Shown: positions 4,820 through 47,079 of the stretch, one piece after another | How the letters are laid out: every line of letters starts with the position of its first letter | How positions within the stretch are numbered: position 1 is the first letter of the stretch | NCBI GenBank assembly: GCA_052325545.1 | Contig: JBKQUP010000034.1 | Coordinates: forward strand, 33,450 to 97,449 | Direction: 5' to 3' | DNA: 64,000 nt | DNA from: Thermoplasmata archaeon | GTDB lineage: Archaea > Thermoplasmatota > Thermoplasmata > Lutacidiplasmatales > UBA184 | Translations under genes and position numbers: made by a program | The notes under the pieces: model-generated | The model's input: the letters and a program-made list of their open reading frames with translations, nothing else | Told to the model about the DNA's origin: nothing | Database searches by the model: none

Positions 4820-4837
4820 CGGTTCTCGGGGGGCGCG

Positions 4838-33242: not shown

Positions 33243-33398
33243 GGCGCGCGGAGTCGGGGTCGGGTTAATTAGCTTGCCGAAACGGATGCTCTCCCCGCTC
33301 GGGCCGCGCCCCTCGGCGGTCGCGGGCGCGAGATCGGGCGCGGGTGCGACTGGGCGGCACTTTTAAGTAGCGTTCCCCGGTCCGCGCCCCCGCGAGCG

Positions 33399-34121
33399 AT
33401 GGCCGAGAAGGAGTCCGGAGCGAAGAAGCCCGCCTTGGCCCGTACGGTCAAGGACAAGTGGCGCTCGAAGCACTGGTACAAGGTTCGGGCCCCTGGGCTC
33501 TTCCAACATGTCGAGCTCGGCGAGACGGTCGCGACCGAGCCCGAGCAGGTCGTCGGTCGGACCCTCGAGGCCACGCTGCCCGAGCTGTCGGGGTCGGGAG
33601 ATTCCGGCAAGGCCCACGTGAAGCTGCGCTTCCGTATCGAGCGGATCTCGGGCGAAGGGATCGCCGAGGCGAGGTTCGTCGGTCATGACCTCACGAGCGA
33701 TTACGTCCGGAGGCTCGCCCGCCGCAAGCGCTCGAAGATCGACCTCGCCCTCACGGTGACGACGAAGGACGGCGTCCAGATCATCCTGAAGCCGGTCGCG
33801 GTCGGGGAGCAGCGCCTCCAGACCCGCCTGCGCGCCGAGCTTCGCCACAAGATGGTCCAGATCCTCCTCGAAGAGGCCCAGCTGCGGACCTCTCCCGAGT
33901 TCGTCCGAGAGATGATCCAGGGGGACCTTTCGAAGGTCCTGGCCCACGGGGTGAAGACCCTCTACCCGCTCAAGAAGATCGAGATCCGGCGGTCGGAGGT
34001 CCTCGGAATGATCTCGGAAGAGATCCCGGTACCGGAGCCGACCGCGCTCCCCGAGCCGTCAACGCCACCCGAAGAGGCCACTGCCTCCGTGGTCGACGCG
34101 GGCGCGGGCCCGGCGGCGTAG
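33399..34121 (+). CDS. rps3ae: 30S ribosomal protein S3Ae (eS1)
   Basis: KDKWRSKHWYKVRAP, GHDLTSDYVRRL and LYPLKKIEIRR; TTTTAAG box near 33361. Confidence 0.96.
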   Translation: MAEKESGAKKPALARTVKDKWRSKHWYKVRAPGLFQHVELGETVATEPEQVVGRTLEATLPELSGSGDSGKAHVKLRFRIERISGEGIAEARFVGHDLTSDYVRRLARRKRSKIDLALTVTTKDGVQIILKPVAVGEQRLQTRLRAELRHKMVQILLEEAQLRTSPEFVREMIQGDLSKVLAHGVKTLYPLKKIEIRRSEVLGMISEEIPVPEPTALPEPSTPPEEATASVVDAGAGPAA

Positions 34122-34155
34122 TTCCGAAGGGCGCGAGATGACGCGTCCAATCCCT

Positions 34156-34257
34156 GTCGGAGTGGCTCAGCCCGGTAGAGCACGGGACTCATAGCGGGAC
34201 GCGTGTCGCGTCCCGGGAGATATCCTGGGGCCGGGGGTTCAAATCCCCCCTCCGACA
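34156..34257 (+). tRNA. tRNA-Met(CAT), probably elongator, with a 28-nt intron (34194-34221)
   Basis: GTCGGAG/CTCCGAC acceptor; CGGGA-CTCATA..A-TCCTG; GGGGG-TTCAAAT-CCCCC T-arm; intron hairpin CGGGACGCG-TGT-CGCGTCCCG. Confidence 0.95.
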
Positions 34258-34304
34258 TTTTGCGCCGATCTTTCGCCGAGAATTTGGGTCTCTTCCTTGC
34301 CCCG

Positions 34305-34346
34305 CCGGAAGACTTGAACTCTAGGGGTTCGCATCTTCCCTCCGGA
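34305..34346 (+). repeat. tRNA-Met-derived palindromic site, type B (R1)
   Basis: CCGGAAGACTTGAACTCTAGGGGTTCGCATCTTCCCTCCGGA. Confidence 0.6.
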
Positions 34347-34630
34347 AAGGGGTCCCTCGCGTGCACTGGGAACGGCATGCCACATGCAGAAACGAGGCGA
34401 GCTCATGCCGCCCGTGAGCCCACCGTCGTCACCCTGGGGAATCTTTCCCGTTTCGGACCGCGACGAGGTCTCTATCGGAATCGGGGAGTCTGTCCGCGCT
34501 GGACGGGAGAACCCACCCAGTTGTCCGAGCACGAGATACGGTGCCGTCGCGCCGGGGATTTACCGAGAGTCGGTTAAGCGAATGTAAAAGACTCTTGATT
34601 GCGTGTTCAGAGGATTGCTAAGGGGGTTGT

Positions 34631-35761
34631 ATGGAGCGAAGGCAGGGAGGATACTACGTCCGGCCGCTTGGCGAGCTTTGGGAGATGTGGAAGCCACGAG
34701 TGAAGGCGAACGGATGGCCATTCCCATACGCCAGGTACGAGGACGTGGAGAGAGTAATGGTCAGCCTCAGATCCTACGACAGGGACGAGTGGGCCACGGC
34801 CTTCAGCGCGGTCGCCAAGCCGTACGAGGAGAGGGCCACCGAGGCGGAGAAGAGAGGGGAGGCGAAGTTCGCGAAGGAGAACTACCTTCTTGCCTACCAG
34901 TACTACTACTTGGCCCGGTACCCCACCATCAACTCCGAGGGGAAGAGAGCCGCGTACAGGAAGTCGCAGGAGATGTTCCTGAAAGCCGCGCGCTACTTCG
35001 ACGTGCCCGTCGAGAGAGTGGAGATTCCGTTCAGCGGCAAACCGGGAGAAGGCAGCACCGTAGTCGGATACCTCAGAGTACCCAAGGTCGATTCGGCGCC
35101 CTTCCCTCTAATCTTGAGCTGGGGAGGCATAGACGGCTACAAGGAGGAGCACCTCAACGACTACGCACTGAAGAACGGGATTGCGACTCTCGCGATAGAC
35201 GGTCCGGGCGTGGGAGACTCGCCGCTCAAGGGTTCTGAGGACGCCGAGCGGCTGTTCGGCGCGGTGCTGGACTGGCTTGCGGTGAGAAAGGGGATCGATG
35301 CTCGGAGGCTTGGAGTATGGGGAATGAGCACGGGAGGGTACTGGGCGGTCAAGGTAGCGCACGTCTTCAAAGACCAGATCGCATGTGCGGTTAGCCAAGG
35401 CGGGCCCGTGCACTACGGGTTCCAGCCCGAGTGGTTCCCACAGCAGGAGCGCGGGGAGTATGCCTTCGAGGTGTTCGACACGCTCGCGTTCGCGTTCGGG
35501 AAGTCCTCCCCCGAGGAGTATCTGGAGTTCGCCCCCAGGCTATCGCTCCTCACTCAGGGCATGCTCGATAGGCCATGCGCGCCCCTACTGCTGGTGAACG
35601 GGCTGCACGACACACTGTTCCCAATAAAGGACTACTACCTGTTGCTCGAGCATGGGAGCCCAAAGTGCGCGAGGTTCTATGACGTGGGGCACATGGGCTT
35701 TACCCGCGAGACGTTCGCTATGATCATGGGTTGGATGATAGACCGGCTGAAAGCGAAATAA
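34631..35761 (+). CDS. Alpha/beta hydrolase, FrsA/2,6-dihydroxypseudooxynicotine hydrolase-like
   Basis: GGIDGYKEE, IDGPGVG, GMSTGGY, NGLHD and GHMG motifs. Confidence 0.88.
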   Translation: MERRQGGYYVRPLGELWEMWKPRVKANGWPFPYARYEDVERVMVSLRSYDRDEWATAFSAVAKPYEERATEAEKRGEAKFAKENYLLAYQYYYLARYPTINSEGKRAAYRKSQEMFLKAARYFDVPVERVEIPFSGKPGEGSTVVGYLRVPKVDSAPFPLILSWGGIDGYKEEHLNDYALKNGIATLAIDGPGVGDSPLKGSEDAERLFGAVLDWLAVRKGIDARRLGVWGMSTGGYWAVKVAHVFKDQIACAVSQGGPVHYGFQPEWFPQQERGEYAFEVFDTLAFAFGKSSPEEYLEFAPRLSLLTQGMLDRPCAPLLLVNGLHDTLFPIKDYYLLLEHGSPKCARFYDVGHMGFTRETFAMIMGWMIDRLKAK

Positions 35762-36036
35762 GTAGGGTTCGAGGCGCTGAACCCTCTTGTTACGGCGGCC
35801 GGGGATAACTAAGCTCCCTACGACACGGGAGAATGCGCAACGGCTCCTCGGCGACGGGGCTGGTGCCTTGGCTCTCGGCCCGGAGTGTGAGCTTTTCGGG
35901 ACATTTCCTGAAATAGGGCGGGTTCTGTAATCCAAGGAGTTGGTCCGACTACTTGGACCGATTCCTGCCGCCGGGGTTGTGTAATGGGAAGGGTTCCCCG
36001 TCGGTCCTGACGAGGCGCTGGAACCCCGAAATTGTT

Positions 36037-36077
36037 GATACTTGAACCCTGGGAGGGTTCGAATACCCCCTCCGACA
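36037..36077 (+). repeat. tRNA-Met-derived site, type B (R2), closest copy of the tRNA 3' end
   Basis: 36053-36077 GAGGGTTCGAATACCCCCTCCGACA matches 34233-34257 at 22 of 25 positions; hairpin TTGAACCCT-GGG-AGGGTTCGA. Confidence 0.85.
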
Positions 36078-36126
36078 CTCGGTCCGGACGAAGCCGGCCA
36101 ATTCGGGCCAAGAACAGGATGGAACC

Positions 36127-36534
36127 GTGAGGAAAGTCACCCCAAAATCGACGGCCGACGTGGATTCTTACATCGCTCGATGTCCCGCCAAGGTCCGTGG
36201 CAAGCTCGTCCGGGTCCGCAACGCCATCCGTGCCGCCGCACCGGATGCAACGGAGGTGATCAGCTACCAGATTCCCGGATACGCCTACCCCGGCCACGAG
36301 CACAACGGGATGTTCGCGGGGGTTGGCCTTCAGAGCAACCACATCGGCCTGTACGTCCGACCGCCTACGATCGAGAATCACCGGAGGGAGCTGGCCGGCT
36401 ACAAGACCACCAAGTCGGCGGTCCATCTTCCGCTGGATCGTGAGATTCCGACCCGACTTATTCAGATGCTGGTTCGAGCGAGCGTGCGGGTGATGAAGGA
36501 GAGGGGCCGCAAACGCTCGCCCGGGCTCGCATGA
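36127..36534 (+). CDS. DUF1801 (YdhG-like) protein
   Basis: DVDSYIA, IRAAAPDATEVISYQIP, HIGLY and YKTTKSAV. Confidence 0.88.
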   Translation: MRKVTPKSTADVDSYIARCPAKVRGKLVRVRNAIRAAAPDATEVISYQIPGYAYPGHEHNGMFAGVGLQSNHIGLYVRPPTIENHRRELAGYKTTKSAVHLPLDREIPTRLIQMLVRASVRVMKERGRKRSPGLA

Positions 36535-36646
36535 GAAGCGGCAACGAAGGCGCTTGACGGGGATTGGAGGATCCTAGGAAGGTTCCCCTTCGACGCCTTC
36601 CGCCGAATTACCGCCCAGGAGTGACGACGGGTGGCCCCTCACATCC

Positions 36647-36661
36647 GGGGAATTTGAACCC
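36647..36661 (+). repeat. Partial site: inverted T-arm half (R3)
   Basis: GGGGAATTTGAACCC, reverse complement GGGTTCAAATTCCCC. Confidence 0.55.
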
Positions 36662-36726
36662 GCAGGCACCCCTCGCCGAGAGGATGTTCTAGCGTACCTA
36701 AGAGAAGGGCGGCGGAGAGAACGGAC

Positions 36727-36975
36727 TCACCCCTGGTGGACTTCGTGGATCTCGTCGGCGACGAGACCGTGGGCTTCCTTATGCACGCGAGCCGCGGCCT
36801 CCGGGTTTGGCGCCTCAACTAGGCAGAAGATCGTCTCGGTCTTCTCGTCGACCCAGTAGCTCCGATAATTCACACCGTGCTTGCCCTGTACCTTGAGGTC
36901 CTTCGCGTGGGCTTCAGCGACGCCCTTCGCGGTAACGCCTTTCACGTTGCGGTGCACATCCATGTAGACGGGCAT
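36727..36975 (-). CDS. DUF4242 / SCO4226-like metal-binding protein
   Basis: MPVYMDVH...AEAHAKDL...YWVD...FCLVEAP...VHKEAHG. Confidence 0.9.
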   Translation of the reverse strand: MPVYMDVHRNVKGVTAKGVAEAHAKDLKVQGKHGVNYRSYWVDEKTETIFCLVEAPNPEAAARVHKEAHGLVADEIHEVHQG

Positions 36976-37136
36976 AGCGGCCGCAAACTGCGTTCGAAAG
37001 AAAAACCTTCCGATTTCATGAAGCCGGCTCGTTGTCCGATAAGATGGCGTGAAGTCGCCGACTGGAGCGATTTCTAACGAAGAGGACGTGCGGGGGGACG
37101 CTGCTCCGCGGCCCGAGATCGCCTCGCGGCCGCCCT

Positions 37137-37201
37137 GTGGGGGGTTTGAAGAGTTCAGTAGTTCCCCCTCCGACTCCTCCTCGGGGGGTTCAAATCCTCC
37201 C
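37137..37201 (+). repeat. Type A palindromic site (R4) followed by a second T-arm copy
   Basis: GTGGGGGGTTTGAAGAGTTCAGTAGTTCCCCCTCCGAC, then GGGGGTTCAAATCC (exact 14-bp tRNA match) at 37184-37197. Confidence 0.85.
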
Positions 37202-37354
37202 AAGATCCGCGCTTTCGGCGTCCGACCGCTTCCGATGCCAAACCCACCCCTTACTCATCCCCGTCGTTAGAAATCCGTCCGAACCGTCGGGCCATAGACT
37301 CCCGTCGCACAAAGCGCGGTTTGTGAGGTGCGGTCGCAACCTGTCAAGGAGGCA

Positions 37355-38527
37355 CTACTGCGCGCATTGGTCATCGACGTCGGCGGTCAGAGAGGAACCG
37401 GACCCGGTGGGTGCCCTACTGGTGTTACCAGGCGTCGGCCCCGGTCGGCGGTCAAACCAACGTCGACTCCACAGGGCAACATAGACGAGCGAAAGGAGCA
37501 CCGGGACCTCAACCAGGGGTCCGATGACCGAGGCGAAGGCGACCTGCGAGGCCACCCCGAAGACTACTACCGCCACCGCGATCGCGAGCTCGAAGTCGTT
37601 GCTTGCCGCAGTGAACGCAACGGTCACCGACTTCTCGTACCCGAAGTTGAGCCAGCGGCTGCCCAGGAATGCCAGCGCCCACATACCGAGGAAGTACGCG
37701 AGGAGCGGCGCGACCACTCGAAGGACCGTGAAGGGAAGGGTAGTGATGGAGAGACCTTGGATTGCAAACATCACTACGATCGTGAAGAGAAGCCCCCAAA
37801 GCGTCAGCCGACTCACGGAGGGAGCGAACCGCTCGTCGTACCACGCTCGTCCCTTCCATCGGGCGAGACCAAGCCGGCTGACCAAGGCAGCCGCCAGTGG
37901 AACTCCGAGGAAGACGAGCACGCTGAGCGCCACTGTGGTGGTGTCTACCGAGATTGCTTGCGAGGGCAGGTGGAGCCACGCGGGCAGGTAGACCAGGTAG
38001 AAGACCGCGAGCCCGGCGTAGGCTAGGATTTGGAACACGGCGTTCAGCGCGACCAGCACGGTCGCGTACTCCGCGTCCCCACCCGCGAGTTGGTTCCAGA
38101 CCAGTACCATGGCGATGCACCGGGCCAATCCGACTAGGATGACTCCCGTCCTTAGGAGCGGCGCGTCGGGGAGGAGCGTCCACGCTAGCGCGAACATAAA
38201 CGCTGGGCCCACGACCCAGTTCAGAACAAGCGGGAAGACCGTCGATCGCCACCCTCGGGTGACCTCGCGAATCCGGCCGTACCTCACTCGAGCCAGAATC
38301 GGATACATCATCAGAAGCAGGCCGATGGCGATCGGTACAGAGACCGACTGGATTTGCCAGAGGCCGAGCGCGGTGCCGATTCCCGGCCACAGACGACCCA
38401 AGGCAAGTCCGGCGACCATAGCCGAAATGACCCAGACGGGAAGGTATCGGTCCACGACGTCGAGCTGCTGGCTCGGGCGAGGGGCCGTCGAAAGAGGTCC
38501 TTCCAGTGATTCTGTGGCCACGCTCAC
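37355..38527 (-). CDS. acr3: Arsenite efflux transporter Acr3
   Basis: AIGLLLMMYP, LNWVVGP, GLARCIAMV, SNDFELAIAVA and GPLVEVP motifs. Confidence 0.96.
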   Translation of the reverse strand: MSVATESLEGPLSTAPRPSQQLDVVDRYLPVWVISAMVAGLALGRLWPGIGTALGLWQIQSVSVPIAIGLLLMMYPILARVRYGRIREVTRGWRSTVFPLVLNWVVGPAFMFALAWTLLPDAPLLRTGVILVGLARCIAMVLVWNQLAGGDAEYATVLVALNAVFQILAYAGLAVFYLVYLPAWLHLPSQAISVDTTTVALSVLVFLGVPLAAALVSRLGLARWKGRAWYDERFAPSVSRLTLWGLLFTIVVMFAIQGLSITTLPFTVLRVVAPLLAYFLGMWALAFLGSRWLNFGYEKSVTVAFTAASNDFELAIAVAVVVFGVASQVAFASVIGPLVEVPVLLSLVYVALWSRRWFDRRPGPTPGNTSRAPTGSGSSLTADVDDQCAQ

Positions 38528-38575
38528 CTCAAGCTACGACTTCGAGCGGAGAGGCGTGGGTGACGCGGGAGGCAC

Positions 38576-39037
38576 TCATGCCGATCTCGCGGAGAGGTCC
38601 TCGGCTACCCCTTTCCGGCGGCGGTCCGACACGACGAGCTCGGTCCGGAGGCGCTTCACGTTCCCAGCGATTCGGTCGCGAACCTGTCGGAACCCGTCGT
38701 CGTCCAAGGACACAGGGTCGGGGAGCGACCAGTCCCTGAGTTCCAGGGTCTTGAGCCGGGCCGGACAGGCCGCGTCATCAAGACACCCCATTGTTACCCG
38801 GACCCGGGCGATGTCCATCATCTCAGGGGTTAACAGCTGAGGCGGGTGCGGGGGGAGGTCCAACCCTATCTCGCGGAGCATCGGTCCGGTCCGTGGATTC
38901 GCAGACGTTGCTGGACTCGTTCCAGCTGAGATCGCGGTCCACCCCTCCGGGGAATTGGCGTTGAACATTGCCTCGGCCATCAGCGAACGGCCGGAGTTCC
39001 CGACGCAGATGAACAGAACGACCTTGGATTCCGTCAT
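38576..39037 (-). CDS. arsC: Arsenate reductase, LMW-PTP family
   Basis: CVGNSGRS P-loop, MGC....CP and DWSLPDP; ars operon context. Confidence 0.9.
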   Translation of the reverse strand: MTESKVVLFICVGNSGRSLMAEAMFNANSPEGWTAISAGTSPATSANPRTGPMLREIGLDLPPHPPQLLTPEMMDIARVRVTMGCLDDAACPARLKTLELRDWSLPDPVSLDDDGFRQVRDRIAGNVKRLRTELVVSDRRRKGVAEDLSARSA

Positions 39038-39858
39038 GGATGGGGACCTCTGGGTTTCGTTGCACGAACCTCGCCCGGCACGACCCCGATCTCATCCTGG
39101 GCGCGCAGAGACTCCACTGAGGGACCCCCTCCGAGAACCGAGACCTCGATGAACTCGAACCCTGCCGAGCGCAAACGGTCCGTCACCTCGTCCACGGTCA
39201 ACGCTCCTGAAGAACAGGAGGCCCACCGCTCTGGGTCCTTCCGCATTTCTTCGGAAATGGGACGTGTCGCGAGAACGTCCGCGACCGCGAGCCGCCCGCC
39301 GGGCCGTAGGACCCGAAACGCCTCACGATAGACCTGTCCCTTGTCGGGAACGAGGTTAATCACACAGTTCGAAAGGACGACATCGACCGAAGCGTCCGCC
39401 ACCGGGAGGTGTTCGATCTCGCCCAATCGAAACTCAACGTTACTTCGGCCGCTCGACCGGGCGAGGTCGCAGGCCCGGGCGACCATCTCGGGCGTCATGT
39501 CCACTCCGATCACGCGGCCCGTTGGGCCGACATAGCCGGCGGCAAGGAAGCAGTCGACACCCGCACCGCTGCCAAGGTCCAGCACCACTTCGCCCGGGGC
39601 CAGTGGCACGAGTCGCGAGGGATTCCCGCACCCGAGCCCGAGATTCGAGCCTTCCGGGATGGTCGCCAACTCTGAGGGAGTGTAACCAGTGGAGCAGCAA
39701 GCGGCTTCAGCCTCCGGGGATGCTGTGCCCTGCGAGGCACCGGCGCAGGAGGATTCGCTTCCCCCGCAGCAGTTACCGCTTCCCGCGCGGGCAAGTGCGC
39801 CATACCGATCTCTCACAGACTGTCGCATCACCTCTCCGTTTGCTTCGGATTCGCTCAT
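39034..39858 (-). CDS. arsM: Arsenite S-adenosylmethionine methyltransferase
   Basis: N-terminal CC pairs, LGLGCGNP, DLGSGAG and SNCVINL. Confidence 0.95.
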   Translation of the reverse strand: MSESEANGEVMRQSVRDRYGALARAGSGNCCGGSESSCAGASQGTASPEAEAACCSTGYTPSELATIPEGSNLGLGCGNPSRLVPLAPGEVVLDLGSGAGVDCFLAAGYVGPTGRVIGVDMTPEMVARACDLARSSGRSNVEFRLGEIEHLPVADASVDVVLSNCVINLVPDKGQVYREAFRVLRPGGRLAVADVLATRPISEEMRKDPERWASCSSGALTVDEVTDRLRSAGFEFIEVSVLGGGPSVESLRAQDEIGVVPGEVRATKPRGPHP

Positions 39859-40223
39859 GGGACCTCCGCCAGGGCACCCGGCCTGAGCCGGTAGTACATC
39901 CACTTCCCGTGCCGTCGGGTTGTTACGAGGCCAGCGGAAGAGAGTACAGACATGTGGTGGCTCACGGTGGCGTGGGTCACGCCAAGCGCGGCTTGAATCT
40001 CGCAGGCACAGAGCTCTCCTTCTCGACCAAGGATCGCAACGGCCGTCAACCGCTGCGCATCTGAAAGCGCCCGAGCGCGCGCGAGGGCCTTCGCGAACCC
40101 GCTTCCCTTCGCGACCTGCTTGCCCATTCCCTGGTAGCGCGGGAGACAACCAGCACCGTCCGAACCAGTCAGTCTTCCCAACCGGCCGACGAGGCCGGTC
40201 TCGGGCTTGGATGACGCCATCAT
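39855..40223 (-). CDS. arsR: ArsR/SmtB As(III)-responsive repressor
   Basis: ALSDAQRL, ELCACEI and TVSHHMSVL; start at 40223 or 40241. Confidence 0.92.
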   Translation of the reverse strand: MMASSKPETGLVGRLGRLTGSDGAGCLPRYQGMGKQVAKGSGFAKALARARALSDAQRLTAVAILGREGELCACEIQAALGVTHATVSHHMSVLSSAGLVTTRRHGKWMYYRLRPGALAEVP

Positions 40224-40269
40224 GTCGATGCAGGTCGACACAGTATATGTAGATATCCATCGACATATA
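40223..40269. promoter_or_regulatory. Probable ArsR operator(s)
   Basis: TATATGTAGAT-ATCC-ATCGACATATA (40244-40269) and TGTCGA-N6-TCGACA (40223-40240) at the arsR start. Confidence 0.65.
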
Positions 40270-40372
40270 TGCTCAGATTATCCGGAGTTCCGCCGTCGCC
40301 GGGTTGTTCGTAGACAACAGACGGTCGACCCGGGGTGGAGGTTTAAGGTCGAATGAGATGATCGAGGATCGA

Positions 40373-41230
40373 ATGATTTCGCAAGCGGAGAAGGCCGAAG
40401 CGTTCCGCGCCCTGCATCATGGAGGCCGTGCGCTCATCCTTCCGAATGCGTGGGACGTCCCCAGCGCGCGGGTATTCGAGGAGGCCGGTTTCCCCGCGGT
40501 TGCGACCTCCAGTGCGGGACTCATGGTTTCCCTGGGATATCGGGACGGAGAGGAGATGCCCCGACGCGAATTGGCGGCGGCGGTTTGGCGAATTGCGACG
40601 AAGCTCTCCGTTCCCCTGAGCGCCGACGTGGTCGCGGGGTACGGCCGCACTCCTCGCGAAGTGACCGCAACGGTTCGGATGATGCTCGCTTCCGGGGCGG
40701 TTGGCATCAACTTAGAGGATCGGGTTCCCTCGGGCCAGGGAATGTATCCCGATACGGTCCAGGTCCGGAAGATCGTGGCAATTCACCGCCTTGGAAGATC
40801 GGTGGGAATCCCTCTGGTGATCAACGCTCGGACCGACGCGCTTCGGCTCGCCCCCGGTGATGACGAGGAACGGCTTCGCGAGGCCATACGTCGTTCGATC
40901 GCGTACCGTGACGCGGGAGCGGATTGTGTCTACCCTATGGGCTTGACCGACCCCCAATCCATCTCGACGTTTGTCGGTGCTCTCCGGTGCCCGGTCAATG
41001 TGATGGTCCGGAAGGGACTCCCTCCGATCGCGGAGCTGGAGAAGCTGGGCGTGAAGCGAGTGAGCTTTGGCCCTTCCGCATCGTATGCGGCTATGGGACT
41101 GTTAAGACGAGCAAGCCTCGAGATCATCGCGCACGGCACGTACGGTTCGTTGCTGGACGGCGCAATCACTTTCGATGAGCTCAACCGTCTTGCCGCGCCG
41201 AAGGACTCCGAAAGCGACCCTCACAGTTAG
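40373..41230 (+). CDS. Isocitrate lyase/PEP mutase family protein
   Basis: PNAWD, ATSSAG, GINLED, INARTD and AGADCVY; TTTAAG box near 40342. Confidence 0.92.
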   Translation: MISQAEKAEAFRALHHGGRALILPNAWDVPSARVFEEAGFPAVATSSAGLMVSLGYRDGEEMPRRELAAAVWRIATKLSVPLSADVVAGYGRTPREVTATVRMMLASGAVGINLEDRVPSGQGMYPDTVQVRKIVAIHRLGRSVGIPLVINARTDALRLAPGDDEERLREAIRRSIAYRDAGADCVYPMGLTDPQSISTFVGALRCPVNVMVRKGLPPIAELEKLGVKRVSFGPSASYAAMGLLRRASLEIIAHGTYGSLLDGAITFDELNRLAAPKDSESDPHS

Positions 41231-41249
41231 CGGTGGATCTACCGCCGCC

Positions 41250-41291
41250 GTGGGGGATTTGAAGATTTCAATAGTTCCCCCTTCCGACATT
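41250..41291 (+). repeat. Type A palindromic site (R5)
   Basis: GTGGGGGATTTGAAGATTTCAATAGTTCCCCCTTCCGACATT; extra half-site GGGATTTGAAACC at 41343-41355. Confidence 0.85.
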
Positions 41292-41403
41292 CTTAGGTGA
41301 CTTGTCACCGAGAAGCGGCGACGTCTGACCATTTGTGTGCTAGGGATTTGAAACCGAAAACGCTCCGGTGATAGACGAGGGCGGCTCTTTCCCTCGGCAG
41401 CGG

Positions 41404-42096
41404 TTACCTCGAAGGTCGTTGGGCCCCAGAGGCTGTTGGATTGTCGGGGATGGGAGTAGCCCGACGAGGGGGCCACCCGGGCCCGAAGACACCGGCGATC
41501 TGGAGTAGTAGGTAGGCGACCACGAACAGCACGGTCGCGACCAGAAGGATGTCGATATAGCGGAAGTACGAAGAGACGGCCGTCCAATTGGAACGGAGTA
41601 TCATCCCGGCGTACACCAAGGCGAGGGTGAAGGGAATCGAACCGAGCAACGTGTACGCCCCGAAGCGGACAGGCTTCATCCGGGCCGTCCCCGCAGGGTA
41701 GGAGATGTAGGCACGCACAACGGGTACGAGACGCGCGACGGCGACCGTGAGTTCCCCCCGGCGGGCAAAAAATCGGTCCATCCGTTCGAGATGGCGGGCT
41801 TCCAGTCGAAGACGGCCGATGCCGAACCCCGTGATGCGCTCGCGCCACAAGCGGCCGACGGCGTACGCGGCGAAAGAGCCGACCAGTCCGCCGGCCAAAG
41901 CGGCCAAGAGCGATCCTCCGAGCGAGAACGTCCCTTCCGCCACCAGAAAGCCGGTGAACGGAAGGATGATCTCGGAGGGTATGGGAGGTAACCCGAAGCT
42001 TTCGACCACCATCAAGGCGAAGAGGCCCGGTAAGCCGACCGTGGTTAGGACGGTGGTGATGAACTCGGCCACGCTGCCGATGAGCGAGAACGTCAC
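41404..42096 (-). CDS. DedA family membrane protein
   Basis: ESFGLPPIPSEIILPFTG and ARLVPVVRAYISYPAG. Confidence 0.93.
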   Translation of the reverse strand: MTFSLIGSVAEFITTVLTTVGLPGLFALMVVESFGLPPIPSEIILPFTGFLVAEGTFSLGGSLLAALAGGLVGSFAAYAVGRLWRERITGFGIGRLRLEARHLERMDRFFARRGELTVAVARLVPVVRAYISYPAGTARMKPVRFGAYTLLGSIPFTLALVYAGMILRSNWTAVSSYFRYIDILLVATVLFVVAYLLLQIAGVFGPGWPPRRATPIPDNPTASGAQRPSR

Positions 42097-42193
42097 AGTG
42101 GAGCCCCTGGTCGCGACGACCCGCTCTACGACGTTTGGCTTAAAGACTCCAACCCGCGGCTTTGGGGGGGCCTCGGTCGTCCCACTCGGTGGT

Positions 42194-42276
42194 GCGGGGG
42201 ATTTGAAGAACTCAGTAGTCCCCCCTCCGGCGTTCGATTTGGGAACCCTCAGGGGAATCGGATTCCCCCTCCGGAA
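42194..42276 (+). repeat. Type A site (R6) immediately followed by a type B site (R7)
   Basis: GCGGGGGATTTGAAGAACTCAGTAGTCCCCCCTCCGGC, then GATTTGGGAACCCTCAGGGGAATCGGATTCCCCCTCCGGAA. Confidence 0.8.
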
Positions 42277-42493
42277 GAGGGTGGGTTTCCCGACGGGAGA
42301 GGTCGGTCTCAGCGATCTACTCCGAGGCGCTCCGGCCCACGGTCCTGCTCCTGTCGATGGTCAGGACGCCGCCTTACTGGGAGCGAAATGCACGCGGCCT
42401 AGGACCTGATAACGCGGACGTTAGCAGACCCGCGGACGACCACTCCTCTGTTATATCCCCCCGGTCCGCTCACATCGATGCGAAGGGTGCATT

Positions 42494-42886
42494 ATGACCG
42501 GATGGCACAAGGCAGCGGACGCGAAGGAGTTGCCCCAAGGAACGATGAAAGGAATCGAGGTCGCGGGAGCGAAGGTCCTGTTGGTGCACGGGTCTTCGGG
42601 AATCCGTGCGTTCGAGGACCGGTGTGGTCATATGTCTGCCCCCGTCAGCATCGGTACTTTCAAGAGCGGCGTACTCAAGTGTGCGCTCCATGCCGCGGTG
42701 TTCGACGCCGAGACCGGGGCGGTTCGTGGACCGCCCCAGATGCACGCACCGCCGGCCGGGCAACTTCCTCCGGAACTAATGGAAATGATGGCCGCCATGG
42801 GACAAATCATGGCCCAAATCCGCTGCGACCCACTTCGGCCTTTTCCGGTCGCGGTTGAAGGTGGCCAGATCATGGTCTACGTCTGA
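42494..42886 (+). CDS. Rieske [2Fe-2S] ferredoxin
   Basis: CGH...CALH ligand motifs. Confidence 0.9.
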   Translation: MTGWHKAADAKELPQGTMKGIEVAGAKVLLVHGSSGIRAFEDRCGHMSAPVSIGTFKSGVLKCALHAAVFDAETGAVRGPPQMHAPPAGQLPPELMEMMAAMGQIMAQIRCDPLRPFPVAVEGGQIMVYV

Positions 42887-43076
42887 AGGACCGGTGCCTA
42901 CCTTTGGTTTTGAAGGGAGCGCCGAACGCGCTCTGGACTCGGATCGTTGATCCCGGATTCGGATGGAGGGGGGAATCTCGAGTTTTCAGCGGGGGCGAGC
43001 TCCCTTCGCCCAGGACACCGCCGATTCCGGTACCTGCTTTACGATCCGCCGAGCCCGATAGACATGGAGGTGTAAA

Positions 43077-43481
43077 TTGGCCAAAAAAGTGACGCCCAGC
43101 TGGGACAGCGCCGGAGCTGAGGTGCTCCGAACGAACGACTTCGAGGGTACGCGTCTCAAGCGCGACGGGACCTACGCGGTTTGCTTTGGGGCCACGTGGT
43201 GCCCCCCGACTCGAGCCTTCGTCCCTAAGTTCGTCGCCCGAAATGGACGTCTCCCAGCCAACCTCGCCATCGCGGATATCACGGAGATGAATGACCCACT
43301 GTGGGACTCGTTCCGGATCAAGATCACTCCTACAATCCTCGTTTTTCGGGATGGGGGAACGGTAGGCCGGTTCGATGGCCGGCGGTTCGTAGGTCTCCGG
43401 GATTCGGACTTGGACCGGCTGACGGACCTGCTGGGAAGGCTAGGCGGTCCGGTGCGCCCCGAGGCGGTCTCCCCTCCCTAG
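43077..43481 (+). CDS. Thioredoxin-like protein (WCPPT)
   Basis: FGATWCPPT and cis-Pro TPTILVFRDG; TTG start after GGAGGTG. Confidence 0.82.
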   Translation: MAKKVTPSWDSAGAEVLRTNDFEGTRLKRDGTYAVCFGATWCPPTRAFVPKFVARNGRLPANLAIADITEMNDPLWDSFRIKITPTILVFRDGGTVGRFDGRRFVGLRDSDLDRLTDLLGRLGGPVRPEAVSPP

Positions 43482-43761
43482 GAACCGAACGCCCCGATGC
43501 GGCGGGTACTCCCCCCGCAGCCGGTTCGAGACGGACCGGTGCTGAGGCGGGAGACCCGTAAGTCGAGGGTTCGAGTCGATTTCCAACCGAGGGCGGTCCG
43601 GTCGGGAGAGCCTCTGCCGAAGGATTCGATGGTTCACGCCGAGAGATAGGAGAGTTAACCAGTGAGGCTGGCCGTTCCGGAGAGACCTTTCGATTCGGGG
43701 ACGGTCGGAGTGATCGGTCGCGACCCCACCGAGCGGCGGCTCCCCGGAGGCGGGGTGGAGG

Positions 43762-43974
43762 CTACTTGGGGTCCTCAGTTGGTGGTTCGGTCCACTCTCG
43801 CATCGGTGTCCGCCGGATCCCCGCAGCCCGCGCAAGGGCGTTCTTCGTCCCTTCCTTGGCCACGTGGGGCGCGTCGGCGACATCAATCTTGACGTCCGTG
43901 CCAATCCCCCCCAATGCCCTTCGCATCTCGTGTAGGTGCTCTCGGAATCGCGGTCGGTCAGCTTCGTCGGTCAT
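43762..43974 (-). CDS. Small hypothetical protein, short paralog of 29415-29849
   Basis: FREHLHEMRRA...GTKNALARAAGIRRTPMREW. Confidence 0.8.
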   Translation of the reverse strand: MTDEADRPRFREHLHEMRRALGGIGTDVKIDVADAPHVAKEGTKNALARAAGIRRTPMREWTEPPTEDPK

Positions 43975-44204
43975 GGTTCCGGGCCGGTGGGTCCGAGCTT
44001 CTGGTCCAAAAACCTTGAGGTGGACGGGAAGCAAGCGAGCGGGAGCTCTTCGCGGTCGGCACGGGTCCTGGTATGAGTCGGTGCGAGGGTCTGGATCTCG
44101 AACCCCCCAAAGTAGAGACGCGGCAAGTTCCGCCTAGAGTTCAATGGCGCGCGGTTCGGTCCGCTTCAAGAGCTCGCATACATTTCCTCACCTCCCGGAA
44201 TAGG

Positions 44205-45211
44205 GTGAACGAAGTTTCAACTCCGGCCGTCGGCCCCACCCGTACGGGGAAGGCATGGGTCTTTGAACGCTACGGATCCCCCGAGGTCCTCGAACTCCGA
44301 GATGTCCCGGTTCCAGCGTTCCGGGACGAGGACGAGGTACTGGTGCGGGTGCACGCCGCCTCCGTAAACCCTAGCGATCGGCATTCGCTGAAACCCCCTT
44401 TCATCTTCCGGAGAGGACAGGGATTCCTCCGACCGAAAATAGGACGACCCGGGGGCGACCTGGCCGGGCGAATCGAGGTGGTCGCCAAGAACGTAACGAA
44501 GCTACACGTTGGGGACGAGGTCTTCGGCGTGGGCCGTGGCGCCTTTGCGGAGTATGCGGTCGCCGACCAGACCCAGGTGGTCCTGAAACCCGCCCCGCTG
44601 ACGTTCGAGCACGCCGCCGCCGTGCCCATCGCCGCCGTTACGGCCCTCCAGGGCCTCCGCGATACGGCTCAGGTCCGGCCGGGCCAGCGGGTCTTGATCA
44701 ATGGTGCGTCGGGCGGCGTCGGCACCTTCGCGGTTCAAATCGCCAAGTCGCTCGGTGCTAAGGTAGACGGGGTCTGCAGCACCCGGAACGTGGATTTGGT
44801 CAAGTCCCTCGGAGCCGACCGGGTCTTCGATTACTCGCGAGAGGACTTCACCAAGAGCGGCCAGCGCTACGATGTCATCTTCGATACTCAGCTTAACCCT
44901 CCTTGGCGGCGTACCGGGGTATCCTTACTCCCCACGGACTGCTCGTGGTAGTCGGCGCAGGTTCAGGGGAGATCGGCCCAGCGCTCCGCCGACTCTTCAA
45001 GACCCTGGTCTGGACGCGCATTGTCGGGCCGAGAACGAAGTTCTTCATCGCGTCGATCAAGGAGGGAGACCTGGTCGTCCTCAGGGAGCTGCTCGAGGCC
45101 GGTAAGGTGACCCCGGTGATCGACCGGCGCTATCCCTTGAACCAGGTCCCGGACGCGATCCGGTATCTGGCGGAAGGACACGCTCGAGGAAAGATCGTCG
45201 TAACGGTCTAA
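44205..45211 (+). pseudogene. Zinc-independent MDR/quinone oxidoreductase-like gene with a 1-nt frameshift near 44898
   Basis: VRVHAASVNP and NGASGGVG in one frame; GKVTPVIDRRYPL...GHARGKIVV in another. Confidence 0.8.
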
Positions 45212-45322
45212 CGCGGGCCTCGCGTCGCGCCGTACGCGTATCCGCAACGACAGAGCCCCTACGCATCCGGCTCCGGATGCGCGTGTTGTGGACCCTTTGC
45301 GCCGCCGTCAGGATGCCCGACG

Positions 45323-45829
45323 TCAACCGAGAGGGTTCCCGCAGGATGCGCAGAACCTCACGTCCGGAGCCACCGCCCGGCCGCACTTCGGACAGATCCG
45401 CTGCGGCTGCACATACACGACGGTGGGAACGGGGGGAGTAGGTTTGTGGGCGATTCCAAGAATCCCCCCGATGAGAGCCAGGATGAACCCGATGAGGAGT
45501 CCCCCCAATCCGACCAGGCTGACGATCGAGAAGACCAGGACCAGCACCCCGAACATGGTGTGCTGTTGTGGATTCACATAGAGGAGGATCCCGGCGATCA
45601 TGATGATGAGACCGGAGAGGATCTCGACCCCCCCGATGATGAGAACGCCCCCGCCGAAGACGAAGCTCGATATCGCGACCCCGACCGCGAAGAGCACCAG
45701 CCCCCAGAGGAGGATGAAGATCCCTCCGAGGAGAGAGAGAATAAACGCCGCGGTGGGTTTCACCAAGGGGGCGGGCGGAGGGACCATGGGCGGGACACCA
45801 AACTGGGACCCATACGGAGGGGCTGCCAT
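45323..45829 (-). CDS. Four-TM membrane protein (DUF6114-like) with C-terminal zinc ribbon
   Basis: AAFILSLLGGIFIL...; CPKCG...FCASCG. Confidence 0.85.
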   Translation of the reverse strand: MAAPPYGSQFGVPPMVPPPAPLVKPTAAFILSLLGGIFILLWGLVLFAVGVAISSFVFGGGVLIIGGVEILSGLIIMIAGILLYVNPQQHTMFGVLVLVFSIVSLVGLGGLLIGFILALIGGILGIAHKPTPPVPTVVYVQPQRICPKCGRAVAPDVRFCASCGNPLG

Positions 45830-45968
45830 GCCCTGCCTTACAACCGCTCCACTATGACTGCCTTGCGTCGGAGGTCAGTATCCGCCATCCCGAACCCGGT
45901 GCGTTGGGGACCGACTCTCCCGAGGAGCGAGAACAAGGTCGATAGAGTGAAGTCGGGCTGACTGAGAG

Positions 45969-46007
45969 TATTAACCCCCCTTCTTGCATCATTGCATCAT
46001 CCTGCAA
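45969..46007 (+). promoter_or_regulatory. Promoter with probable repressor operator for the dsrE-hdr operon
   Basis: TATTAA at 45969, then TTGCATCA twice and palindrome TTGCA-N6-TGCAA (45992-46007). Confidence 0.55.
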
Positions 46008-46050
46008 GTGAGCAACTGCGGGGGAATGGAACCAACCTAGGAGTCAGAAG

Positions 46051-46617
46051 ATGTCGGGAGCAATCGCAGCCACAACCAAGTCCGCCTTGCCCAAAGACCT
46101 CGGGCTTCCCACGGAACTCACGGTCCCGTCCGGGTCGGCCCCGAGCGGTCTGTCGATGGTGGTCTTCTCGGGGGACCTCGACAAGGTCCTCGCGGCGATG
46201 ATCATCGCGAACGGCGCCGCGGCGATGGACCTGCCCGTGAACATTTTCTTCACGTTCTGGGGACTCAACGTCCTCCGCATCGGAGGGCCGGTCCAGGTCC
46301 AGGGAAAGAAGACGATGACCGAGGGAATGTTCGGCCGCATGATGCCCCGCGGACCGGACCACCTCCAGATCTCGAAGATGAAGATGGGGGGTCTCGGGAC
46401 CCGGATGATCAAGAAGGAGATGGGAAAGAAGCACGTCATGAGCCTTCCGAATCTGATCCGCTCGGCTCAGGAACAGGGCGTGCGATTCATCGCGTGCACG
46501 ATGTCGATGGACCTCATGGGGATCCACAAGGAAGAGCTCATCCCGGGGATCGACTACGGGAACGTGGGCTCGTTCATCGACGCGGCCGACCGAAGCCGGA
46601 TGACACTGTTCATCTGA
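46051..46617 (+). CDS. DsrE/DsrF/DrsH-like (DsrE2) sulfur-transfer protein
   Basis: FSGDLDK, FFTFWGL and ACTMSMDLMGI. Confidence 0.92.
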   Translation: MSGAIAATTKSALPKDLGLPTELTVPSGSAPSGLSMVVFSGDLDKVLAAMIIANGAAAMDLPVNIFFTFWGLNVLRIGGPVQVQGKKTMTEGMFGRMMPRGPDHLQISKMKMGGLGTRMIKKEMGKKHVMSLPNLIRSAQEQGVRFIACTMSMDLMGIHKEELIPGIDYGNVGSFIDAADRSRMTLFI

Positions 46618-46632
46618 GCACAACGGACGTCA

Positions 46633-47061
46633 ATGACGGTTCGACGACGGGTCCCGATCCGGGGGCTCGACCTCGAAGGCTTCGAGCTCGAAGCCGACAC
46701 GATCCGCGTGCTTGCCAACCCGAAACGGCTCATGATCGTGGACCTGCTCGGGCGGGGCCCGAGCACGGTCACCGAGATCGCCGATGGGTTGAACCTCTCC
46801 CTACAGAACGCCTCGCAGCACCTGCGCGTGATGAAGGATCGAGGCATCGTCCGGGCGCGTCGGGACGGCCGTGAGGTCCGCTACGCGCTCCGGAGCCCCG
46901 TTCTCTCGGAGAGCTGCCAGCTGGTCCGGCGAGCGCTGCTCGCGGAGACACGGTTCCGACCGGGCCGCTTCGGCGACGCCGACGAGCCGACAACCCCTTC
47001 GAACCCGCGTCGGACCCGCGAATCCCGACGGGTCCGCATTCCTGTCTCAGTCGCCGGTTGA
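46633..47061 (+). CDS. ArsR/SmtB family regulator
   Basis: LANPKRLMI and SQHLRVM; single C-terminal Cys. Confidence 0.9.
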   Translation: MTVRRRVPIRGLDLEGFELEADTIRVLANPKRLMIVDLLGRGPSTVTEIADGLNLSLQNASQHLRVMKDRGIVRARRDGREVRYALRSPVLSESCQLVRRALLAETRFRPGRFGDADEPTTPSNPRRTRESRRVRIPVSVAG

Positions 47062-47079
47062 ATCACGGAGGAAGGAAGA

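What the first reader, a model, noticed from the sequence alone, without database searches (positions are those of the whole stretch)
34233..44110. Candidate tRNA-anchored, integron-like cassette array punctuated by tRNA-Met-derived palindromic sites
Seen: downstream of tRNA-Met, at least six ~40-bp sites (34305, 36037, 37137, 41250, 42194, 42236) plus partial ones (36647, 37184, 41343, 42965, 44093) lie only in intergenic spacers. Full sites end in a copy of the tRNA 3' end (CCCCCTCCGAC-like) in the tRNA's orientation and begin with an inverted T-arm. They separate small unrelated cargo units: hydrolase, DUF1801, DUF4242, ars operon plus ICL-like gene, DedA, Rieske, thioredoxin. The other three tRNAs here have no such array. 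Known: tyrosine integrases target tRNA 3' ends and leave one direct repeat per event; integrons stack small cassettes at palindromic attC sites. Inference: repeated site-specific capture of 0.5-4 kb non-autonomous cassettes at this tRNA by a recombinase acting in trans, possibly an undescribed archaeal gene-capture platform.
Basis: partly seen in the sequence, partly recalled or inferred. Interest (0 to 1): 0.88.

Follow-up and report, generated by a model that had tools for sequence, protein, structure and literature searches.

The report
tRNA-Met island of stacked gene cassettes
Downstream of a methionine tRNA gene in a soil archaeon lies a patchwork of small foreign gene blocks, separated by recombination-site scars left by mobile elements that insert at this tRNA: a known kind of genomic island in an unusually cassette-like form.

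Summary
Six roughly 40-nt sites (three sub-types) lie downstream of an intron-bearing tRNA-Met. All have the tRNA's orientation, and none occurs elsewhere in the 1.68-Mb assembly. They punctuate a low-GC island that starts at the tRNA's 3' end.

- **Genus-wide pattern:** 17 of 34 same-genus loci downstream of tRNA-Met carry such sites, 43 of 44 hits on the tRNA's strand. Cargo differs between species.
- **Breakpoints:** homology breaks fall at the tRNA end and at site edges.
- **Integron reading not supported:** there is no integron-type integrase, no covariation for a hairpin, and ORFs face both ways (48+/43-).
- **Likely cognate enzyme:** a roughly 450-aa tyrosine recombinase without a Pfam hit sits directly after tRNA-Met in three relatives and after other tRNAs elsewhere. 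A T-loop-like motif follows each of those tRNAs, and the sites carry look-alikes of it.

Best reading: the array was built by serial site-specific integration at the tRNA, and the sites are junctions between integrated elements. The window's blocks carry no integrase. Whether they still move in trans is open; I found no excision evidence. Closest known are tandem tRNA islands such as tycheposon islands. I rate it a new variant of a known kind.

The parts
34156..34257 (+). tRNA-Met (CAT) gene with an intron. It is the integration target (attB/attL core = its last ~12 nt).
   Evidence: Rfam RF00005, 57 bits. Homology with 8 of 8 compared relatives stops at 34257-34282.
34309..34351 (+). C-type site: inverted plus direct T-arm-like motif ending in TCCGGAAAGG. 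Read as the element-side (P') arm of the tRNA-proximal block.
   Evidence: nhmmer E 4e-9. Homology with G130 and G057 ends at its right edge, 34350/34351.
34631..35761 (+). Cargo: FrsA-like alpha/beta hydrolase.
   Evidence: Pfam PF06500, E 3e-22. An 88%-identical copy lies about 700 bp downstream of tRNA-Trp in G057.
36037..36077 (+). B-type site: palindromic pair of T-loop-like motifs followed by the tRNA's 3' end (attR-like junction).
   Evidence: nhmmer E 3e-9. Only the site itself, not its flanks, matches G003, G130 and G006.
36127..36534 (+). Cargo: DUF1801 protein.
   Evidence: Pfam PF08818.
36727..36975 (-). Cargo: SCO4226-like (DUF4242) protein. The listed ORF runs to 37203; I read the start codon at 36975 from the sequence.
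   Evidence: Pfam PF14026, residues 80-155 of the 158-aa ORF.
37136..37174 (+). A-type site: imperfect palindrome whose right arm runs into the tRNA's 3' end.
   Evidence: nhmmer E 1e-10. 21 A sites from 11 genomes align at 77% mean column identity.
37184..37200 (+). Degenerate direct T-arm motif after the A site, in the position that a C site holds in G130.
   Evidence: Sequence. In G130 the same cargo is preceded by an A+C pair at L050 3450-3580.
37355..41230 (.). Cargo block: ACR3 arsenite carrier (-), LMW-phosphatase-type ArsC (-), ArsM-like methyltransferase (-), and PEP-mutase/isocitrate-lyase-family gene (+).
   Evidence: Pfam. An 83.5%-identical block in G130 ends at the end of the next A site (win 37464-41288).
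41250..41290 (+). A-type site closing the ars/ICL block.
   Evidence: nhmmer E 5e-11. Homology with G130 degrades right after CCGAC.
41343..41356 (+). Partial inverted T-arm motif about 55 nt after the A site. G130 has one at the same offset.
   Evidence: Pairwise alignment.
41404..42096 (-). Cargo: DedA/VTT-domain membrane protein. G130 has a different 736-bp block here.
   Evidence: Pfam PF09335.
42193..42280 (+). Adjacent A site (42193-42234) and C site (42237-42280): an attP-like junction between two integrated blocks.
   Evidence: nhmmer E 4e-11 and 2e-9. The same A+C pairing occurs twice in G130.
42494..43481 (+). Cargo: Rieske protein and thioredoxin-like protein.
   Evidence: Pfam.
43482..47000 (.). 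Rest of the low-GC stretch, with no significant sites. It holds a Zn-ADH in two frames, a DUF6114/zinc-ribbon gene and DsrE/ArsR. The right border of the island is not resolved.
   Evidence: GC 0.60-0.645 from 34001 to about 47000, against 0.67-0.73 outside; Pfam.

Best explanation
The region is a genomic island built by repeated site-specific integration at the 3' end of tRNA-Met.

**How it works.** Elements of one kind carry an attachment site made of three parts: a palindromic arm of T-loop-like motifs, a copy of the last ~12 nt of the tRNA, and a second arm. Each integration restores the tRNA and pushes the earlier insert outward. What remains is a junction made of the new element's arm, the tRNA-end core, and the older element's arm.

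**What the sites are.** Types A and B are arm plus core. Type C is the arm on the far side. A+C pairs are junctions between neighbouring inserts.

**The enzyme.** It is most likely a divergent ~450-aa tyrosine recombinase. This family's genes sit directly after tRNA genes in this class of archaea.

**What is shown and what is inferred.**
- Shown: the sites, their orientation and exclusivity, breakpoints at site edges, the integrase next to tRNA-Met in relatives, and the integrase's fold.
- Inferred: that this integrase made these junctions, that the T-loop-like motif is its binding site, and where the crossover falls.

In this window the inserts are 0.9-4.1 kb, hold only cargo, and carry no integrase. 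They are either stripped remnants or non-autonomous blocks that depend on an integrase supplied in trans.
For: **Island**
- GC falls from 0.69-0.72 to 0.60-0.645 exactly at the tRNA end.
- Arrays in relatives are 3-8 points lower in GC than the upstream DNA.

**Sites**
- The A and B profiles hit only this locus in 1.68 Mb.
- Across 40 loci (751 kb) there are 44 non-tRNA hits: 43 on the tRNA's strand, 0 upstream of the tRNA, and 0 in six control loci totalling 99,971 bases.
- 17 of 34 loci downstream of tRNA-Met have at least one site.
- Of 43 inter-site segments, 8 are 46-103 bp (pairs), 34 are 564-5336 bp, and one is 12.3 kb.

**Breakpoints**
- Homology ends at the tRNA's 3' end in 8 of 8 relatives compared, including the closest (88% nt identity upstream).
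- It ends at the right edge of the C site in G130 and G057.
- It ends at the end of A(41250) in G130, where a different block follows.

**Cargo moves between tRNA islands**
- ars genes lie after tRNA-Ala, tRNA-Thr and tRNA-Cys in three other species.
- The hydrolase/DUF4242 pair lies after tRNA-Trp in G057.

**Integrase**
- The 463-aa ORF right after tRNA-Met in G002 has no Pfam or NCBIfam hit, but it matches PHROG 1 'integrase' at E 1.5e-6.
- Its model (mean pLDDT 73) matches only tyrosine recombinases at the top: XerA, Brujita Int, VchIntIA and Cre, at E 1e-5 to 1e-4.
- R174, K219, R309, H336 and Y344 are invariant in 11 homologues. The catalytic roles are my reading of the motifs.
- Homologues occur in 65 of 120 genus genomes and 49 of 200 class genomes.
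- Full-length copies sit directly after tRNA-Met in G002, G088 and G106. Fragments do so in G086 and G093.
- Other members sit directly after a second tRNA with anticodon CAT and after tRNA-Gly, -Leu, -Arg and -Val. In G000 one sits after the tRNA at C29:15220.
- In the 12 integrase loci of relatives, a GTTCAAATAC-like motif (degenerate in several) follows the tRNA end whichever tRNA is used. B and C sites carry look-alikes of it; G000's own C29 copy lacks it.

**Second array.** tRNA-Gln on C37 shows the same pattern with its own 3' end.
Against: - No integrase of either family lies in or near the window's array. The only homologue in this genome is 36% identical and sits at another tRNA.
- No integrase remnant was found in six-frame translations of the arrays. 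The only hits were G002's intact gene and a fragment at a tRNA-Ala island in G099. A pure decay model therefore has to assume complete loss every time.
- I could not find the far junction of any integrase-bearing tRNA-Met element, because the contigs end or the hits are weak. The link between the integrase and A/B sites rests on position and shared motifs.
- Contigs from four other metagenome runs show the same junctions and no excision or circle joint. They are short contigs and cannot show rare forms.
- 17 of 34 loci have no detectable site. The profiles were built from this window's own sites, so they favour close relatives.
- The 15-nt spacing between the arms of A sites is longer than the 6-8 bp overlap that I recall as usual for tyrosine recombinase core sites.
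- An ADH homologue lies inverted in G130, so other rearrangements also act here.
Confidence: 0.7

Rival explanations
1. Integron-like platform. A dedicated host recombinase captures single-stranded, folded palindromic sites at the tRNA, as IntI does with attC at attI.
For: - The sites are imperfect palindromes with an unpaired 4-nt stretch on one arm.
- The blocks are small and integrase-less.
- No integrase remnants lie in the arrays.
- One of the structural matches of the new integrase is the integron integrase VchIntIA, though not ahead of XerA or phage integrases.
Against: - No tyrosine recombinase lies beside the array in 11 genomes checked.
- Paired cells for the hairpin are 75.2% against 74.8% in shuffles (216 of 500 shuffles as high). 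There is no excess of compensatory changes.
- ORFs face both ways, 48+/43-.
- The integrase, where present, is inside the island next to the tRNA.
Confidence: 0.05
2. The blocks are active non-autonomous cassettes. They are excised and re-inserted one by one by an integrase supplied in trans from an autonomous element of the same specificity, like cis-mobilizable elements or satellites, rather than being dead remnants.
For: - A-site sequence left of the tRNA core is conserved across 11 genomes although the flanks are unalignable.
- One block is swapped between conserved neighbours in G130 compared with the window.
- A+C pairs look like intact attP-type junctions.
- No backbone or integrase debris lies in 17 arrays holding 91 ORFs. 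One search listed only the 25 commonest of 71 Pfam families.
Against: - No circle or empty-site joint was seen.
- No cognate integrase is in this 89%-complete assembly.
- Site conservation could instead reflect recent spread of related elements.
Confidence: 0.15
3. The sites are decayed tRNA pseudogene fragments left by segmental duplication and homologous recombination, with no site-specific recombinase involved.
For: - G020 carries two complete tRNA-Met copies 2.3 kb apart.
- The right halves of the sites are plain tRNA sequence.
Against: - The left halves are not tRNA sequence in tRNA order. They are an inverted T-loop motif plus a conserved spacer, and this is conserved between genomes.
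- The same motif follows other tRNAs next to integrase genes.
- Orientation is strict (43 of 44) and cargo is foreign in composition.
Confidence: 0.05
4. The sites act at the RNA level, as terminators or tRNA-like processing signals for neighbouring mRNAs.
For: They lie only in intergenic spacers and can be drawn as hairpins.
Against: - Their strand follows the tRNA, not the flanking genes, which face both ways.
- There is no covariation.
- They mark homology breakpoints in DNA.
Confidence: 0.03

Closest known systems
Tycheposon islands of Prochlorococcus (bioRxiv 10.1101/2020.12.28.424599; passages read)
   Same: - tRNA-anchored islands.
- Elements stacked by successive integration, with newer ones pushing older ones outward.
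- Partial tRNA copies scattered through the island.
- Niche-related cargo.
- A tyrosine recombinase of a deep-branching kind.
   Different: - Tycheposons are bacterial.
- That paper reports fragmented integrases among the remnants. None was found in these arrays.
- I did not test homology of the integrases.
- The palindromic arm motifs are not mentioned in the passages I read ('palindrom': 0 occurrences).
Tandem integrated elements at archaeal tRNA genes (review PMC8371274; passages read)
   Same: - Tyrosine integrases target tRNA genes.
- Elements integrate in tandem at one locus.
- Integrated elements often lack an integrase.
   Different: - The inserts here are much smaller (0.56-5.3 kb for 34 of 43 segments) and hold only cargo.
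- The host group is soil Thermoplasmata.
- The integrase family gets no Pfam hit.
- The G002 integrase gene is intact after integration, so it is not of the SSV 'suicidal' class.
Integrons, including those reported in Archaea (bioRxiv 10.1101/2022.02.06.479319; search listing and abstract start only)
   Same: Arrays of small promoter-less-looking gene cassettes are separated by imperfect palindromic sites at one fixed chromosomal point.
   Different: - There is no IntI next to the array.
- The sites carry a tRNA 3' end rather than attC consensus ends.
- There is no covariation for folding.
- ORFs are not co-oriented.
- The anchor is a tRNA gene, not attI.
Cis-mobilizable elements and accretion with ICEs in streptococci (recalled from memory; related listing PMC13651849 seen only)
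   Same: Integrase-less DNA flanked by att sites is stacked beside autonomous elements by site-specific accretion and can be moved in trans.
   Different: That system is bacterial and conjugation-linked. Mobility in trans is not shown here.

Membership tests
Integron | Integron-type tyrosine integrase gene adjacent to the cassette array | tested here: not met
   PF00589 hits in G000 lie only on C20 (two) and C2. None lies near tRNA-Met in 10 relatives. The new family is also absent from the window.
Integron | attC-type sites that work as folded single strands (paired arms kept by compensatory change) | tested here: inconclusive
   21 A sites: 75.2% of cells paired against 74.8% in shuffles. 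Pairs with changes on both sides number 3 against 2.6. The alternative pairing gives the same result. The palindromy lies in conserved columns only.
Integron | Cassette ORFs mostly co-oriented behind one promoter | tested here: not met
   48 ORFs on + and 43 on - in 17 arrays. In the window 2 of 8 array ORFs are on +.
tRNA-targeting integrative element / genomic island (tyrosine integrase) | Intact tRNA gene followed by same-strand copies of its 3' end bounding foreign DNA | tested here: met
tRNA-targeting integrative element / genomic island (tyrosine integrase) | Integrase gene at the tRNA-proximal end | tested here: not met
   It is absent from the window. It is present right after tRNA-Met in G002, G088 and G106, with fragments in G086 and G093. 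The feature is therefore met for the locus type, not for this copy.
tRNA-targeting integrative element / genomic island (tyrosine integrase) | Variable presence among relatives, with the breakpoint at the tRNA end, and deviating composition | tested here: met
Tyrosine recombinase superfamily (for the 463-aa ORF of G002) | Two-domain recombinase fold with conserved R-K-(H/Y)xxR-H-Y residues | tested here: met
   Foldseek top 12 hits are all tyrosine recombinases. Invariant residues are R174, K219, R309, H336 and Y344. PHROG 1 integrase at E 1.5e-6. Assigning these residues to catalytic roles is my reading.
SSV-type 'suicidal' integrase elements | Integrase gene split in two by integration | tested here: not met
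   G002's gene after the tRNA is full length and aligns end to end with homologues.
Tycheposon | Tycheposon-clade recombinase and hallmark replication genes | not tested
   No tycheposon sequences were compared. The resemblance is in architecture only.
Dispersed repeat (MITE/REP-like) | Copies scattered over the genome | tested here: not met
   nhmmer --max over all 37 contigs gives no hit below E 2 outside this locus.

The most novel reading that the evidence does not exclude
Soil Thermoplasmata of this genus, and perhaps the class, run an active cassette-exchange system at tRNA genes. Integrase-less blocks of 0.5-5 kb and one to three genes are bounded by conserved palindromic arms. A previously unclassified tyrosine recombinase family, supplied in trans by rarer autonomous elements, excises them, swaps them between tRNA islands and re-inserts them. 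That would be an archaeal functional counterpart of integrons or tycheposon satellites, built on tRNA 3' ends.
Probability: 0.2. Interest if true: 0.75.

Novelty: new variant of a known kind. Interest (0 to 1): 0.52.

Why it matters
- **A fixed hot spot of gene flux.** The work identifies one such locus in an abundant, uncultured soil archaeal genus. The genus search drew 120 genomes evenly from a larger group.
- **Adaptive genes travel as small blocks.** Arsenic resistance, hydrolases and signalling proteins move between islands at different tRNAs.
- **A recombinase family that profile libraries miss.** It has no Pfam or NCBIfam hit, so integrase-based island finders would overlook these islands.
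- **A clean test case.** If the blocks prove mobile in trans, this would show how streamlined archaea exchange single genes without plasmids or viruses in view.
- **A practical point for assembly.** Many assemblies break right at this tRNA, so the flexible genes here are probably under-sampled in genome bins.

Tried and rejected
- **Reads and contigs.** Eleven runs from four studies hold at least half of the sampled words of the stretch. Contigs of four partial holders (X10-X13) were laid on 33000-48000. They are short, repeat the window's junctions (for example across 41250 and across 42194/42236) and give no joint at any site. The single joint listed (33666 to 47407, 21 letters on one side) is too weak to use. 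Contigs cannot show rare excised forms.
- **Hairpin covariation.** None was found.
- **Pfam-type integrases as the cognate enzyme.** The roughly 325-aa recombinases are 72-74% identical at the nucleotide level between genomes, sit in non-syntenic places (two of seven next to other tRNAs), and have no A, B or C sites near them.
- **Far junctions of integrase-bearing elements.** In G088 only weak hits appeared. For G057 tRNA-Val there is one doubtful repeat.
- **Loose 8-mer T-loop motif.** It gave 622 hits outside tRNAs, which is too degenerate to use.
- **13-mer tRNA tails with one mismatch.** These were too noisy in this GC-rich genome and were replaced by 16-mers.
- **ARAGORN with introns.** It gives many false genes with huge introns, so Rfam was used instead.
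- **Right border of the island.** The orthologue of the gene at 47769-50501 lies 62 kb from tRNA-Met on the other strand in G003. The border is not resolved.
- **Phage and plasmid collections.** No tblastn match to the new integrase at E 1e-3.
- **Collection scan.** 11 of 18 exact pattern matches are Thermoplasmata bins and the rest are bacteria, which I take as chance. I used it only to name the group.
- **Literature limits.** I did not search specifically for this integrase family or for the A, B and C sites. My three searches surfaced no description of them, so I claim no more than that. Supplements were not opened.
- **Unpublished genomes.**
  - G018 (L043) contributes one locus and the single minus-strand hit to the counts.
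  - G086 contributes one integrase fragment next to tRNA-Met and one row of alignment A2.
  - G108 contributes one row of A2.
  - No conclusion depends on them alone.

Full report
**What is there**

The window is part of contig C34 of a 1.68-Mb, 37-contig assembly with about 68% GC. Related records are named only as uncultured Thermoplasmata from soil. An intron-bearing tRNA-Met gene lies at 34156-34257, right after the ribosomal protein S3Ae gene. ARAGORN does not see it. At the tRNA's last base, GC drops from 0.69-0.72 to 0.60-0.645, and it stays low to about 47 kb.

- FrsA-like hydrolase, DUF1801 and an SCO4226-like protein;
- ACR3, ArsC and an ArsM-like gene, plus a PEP-mutase/isocitrate-lyase-family gene;
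- DedA, Rieske and thioredoxin.

No recombinase gene lies between 34 and 48 kb.

**The sites**

The six full sites are real and fall into three sub-types.
- Type A (37136-37174, 41250-41290, 42193-42234) is an imperfect palindrome. Its right arm runs into the last bases of the tRNA.
- Type B (36037-36077) is an inverted plus a direct T-arm-like motif followed by the tRNA end.
- Type C (34309-34351, 42237-42280) resembles B but ends in TCCGGAAAGG-like sequence instead of the tRNA end.

Profiles of A and B, run with all filters off over the whole assembly, find only these sites (E 4e-7 to 8e-11). The next hits have E > 2, apart from the tRNA itself. Those at 42965 and 44093 did not reach significance.

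**Relatives**

The S3Ae gene was found in 20 of 24 other genomes of the genus. In all 16 loci first fetched, tRNA-Met follows it.

*Homology stops at the tRNA.* In 8 of 8 relatives compared by blastn, homology to the window stops at the 3' end of the tRNA. This includes the closest relative, which is 88% identical upstream.

*Site counts.* Over 40 loci (751 kb) there are 44 profile hits outside the tRNA at E <= 0.05. Of these, 43 are on the tRNA's strand and none is upstream of the tRNA. None falls in six control loci (99,971 bases) that hold cargo homologues but no tRNA-Met. Seventeen of 34 loci downstream of tRNA-Met have at least one site. Two of the 34 lost their tRNA to trimming of the fetched region, and both have no site.

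*Segment sizes.* Inter-site segments number 43. Eight are 46-103 bp, 34 are 564-5336 bp, and one is 12.3 kb.

*Composition and orientation.* Arrays are lower in GC than the upstream DNA in every locus with an array over 2 kb. ORFs in arrays face both ways (48+/43-).

*Cargo.* Common cargo families are adenylate-cyclase/TPR and STAND-like proteins, hydrolases and the ars genes.

*Assembly breaks.* At least eight of the listed tRNA-Met matches have the tRNA's 3' end within about 80 nt of a contig end. This is what a variable region would do to assemblies.

**Breakpoints**

Three kinds of breakpoint coincide with site edges.
1. The tRNA end.
2. The right edge of the first C site. G130 shares the tRNA-proximal spacer and C site and then diverges at 34350. 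In G057 the hydrolase block begins at 34351, fused to the upstream region of the DUF4242 gene, about 700 bp downstream of tRNA-Trp and 508 kb from that genome's tRNA-Met.
3. The end of A(41250). G130 has the ars/ICL block at 83.5% identity up to the last bases of that site. A different 736-bp block then stands in place of the DedA block, followed again by an A+C pair.

C sites always follow a tRNA end or an A site within a few tens of bases.

Cargo homologues also lie directly after other tRNAs in other species: ars after tRNA-Ala in G099, tRNA-Thr in G024 and tRNA-Cys in G095. In G099 an integrase fragment follows that tRNA-Ala.

**The recombinase**

Pfam's integrase model finds three genes in this genome. 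One is XerA-like, and none is near the array. In ten relatives none lies near tRNA-Met either.

A search of six-frame translations with a home-made profile gave one weak hit: the 463-aa ORF directly after tRNA-Met in G002. The evidence that it is a tyrosine recombinase is as follows.
- It has no Pfam or NCBIfam match and no sequence match to solved structures, but it matches PHROG 1 'integrase'.
- Eleven homologues align at 52-65% identity, with invariant R174, K219, R309, H336 and Y344.
- A model with mean pLDDT 73 matches archaeal XerA, a mycobacteriophage integrase, the Vibrio integron integrase and Cre, and nothing else with confidence.

Its distribution and position are as follows.
- Homologues are found in 65 of 120 genomes of the genus, often several per genome, and in 49 of 200 genomes of the class.
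- None was found in the phage and plasmid collections.
- Full-length copies sit directly after tRNA-Met in G002, G088 and G106. Fragments do so in G086 (unpublished) and G093.
- Other members sit directly after a second CAT tRNA and after tRNA-Gly, -Leu, -Arg and -Val. This genome's single copy (36% identical) sits after the tRNA at C29:15220.

In the 12 integrase loci of relatives the tRNA end is followed by a short CTCC-like stretch and a GTTCAAATAC-like motif (degenerate in several), whichever tRNA is used. This genome's own copy on C29 lacks that motif. B and C sites contain look-alikes of it, in B as an inverted pair.

I therefore read the 'inverted T-arm' as a recombinase-binding motif that happens to look like a T-loop, rather than as tRNA-derived sequence. 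That reading is an inference.

**Mechanism**

The simplest account is serial integration. Each incoming element recombines with the tRNA's 3' end, restores the gene with its own copy, and leaves a junction made of its arm, the core, and the earlier element's arm. A+C pairs then look like attP-type junctions between neighbours, and tRNA+C looks like attL.

What does not fit a plain decay story is that no integrase debris of either family is found in the arrays, and that the blocks are very small. So the blocks may be non-autonomous units moved in trans. I could not show movement: contigs from other soil metagenomes repeat the window's junctions and give no excision joint.

**Against the integron reading**
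- There is no adjacent integrase.
- There is no covariation for a folded site: 75.2% of cells are paired against 74.8% in shuffles.
- ORFs face both ways.
- The integrase, where present, is element-borne.

**What is known**

Tandem integration at archaeal tRNA genes and integrase-less integrated elements are described in the review PMC8371274 (passages). Prochlorococcus tycheposon islands show the same logic of stacked elements and scattered partial tRNAs (10.1101/2020.12.28.424599, passages). Integrons in Archaea have been reported (listing and abstract start only).

My three literature searches did not surface a description of this locus type or of this integrase family in Thermoplasmata. 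I did not search for them by other terms and saw no supplements.

**Verdict**

This is a new variant of the tRNA-anchored tandem island.

Noticed in passing
G000 contig C37:109721-123200 (outside the window): tRNA-Gln(TTG) is followed by four same-strand copies of its last 16-18 nt, at +2685, +8068, +10712 and +13375. GC drops from 0.70 to 0.60-0.64 over about 16 kb. The arms left of the core differ from the tRNA-Met sites. No integrase of either family is on this stretch.
   Followed up: partly
G000 contigs C3 (tRNA at 3807-3881, -) and C11 (tRNA-Lys at 13456-13529, -): Each has one downstream same-strand copy of its own 3' end (+1295 and +932). The tRNA-Lys copy is preceded by an inverted T-loop motif about 12 nt upstream, like the A sites.
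   Followed up: no
G000 contig C29:15220-16599: A tRNA (I read its anticodon as CGC, Ala) is followed after 51 nt by a 426-aa member of the new integrase family, 36% identical to the tRNA-Met type. This is the only copy in this assembly and probably marks an autonomous element. The contig ends 8.6 kb after the tRNA.
   Followed up: partly
window 44073-45211: Two overlapping ORFs in different frames (44073-44951 and 44903-45211) both match zinc alcohol dehydrogenase families, so the gene looks frameshifted. Homologues in G130, G003 and G105 align over about 1.05 kb.
   Followed up: no
L045 (G020:C35) 793-894 and 3204-3305 in my orientation: Two complete tRNA-Met copies lie 2.3 kb apart, with an ADH-like gene between them. 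A C site directly follows the second copy.
   Followed up: no
L037 (G002:C1) 4409-6258: An IS element (DUF772 plus an ISAZ013-type DDE transposase) sits inside the integrase-bearing element next to tRNA-Met.
   Followed up: no
window 37247-37326: An 80-nt intergenic stretch between the A site and the ACR3 gene matches G130 at 82% in the opposite orientation, inside a different block (L050 1385-1464). I have no explanation for it.
   Followed up: no
window 34258-34300: The roughly 45-nt spacer between the tRNA end and the first site is conserved in G130 and G070, though the flanking cargo is not.
   Followed up: no
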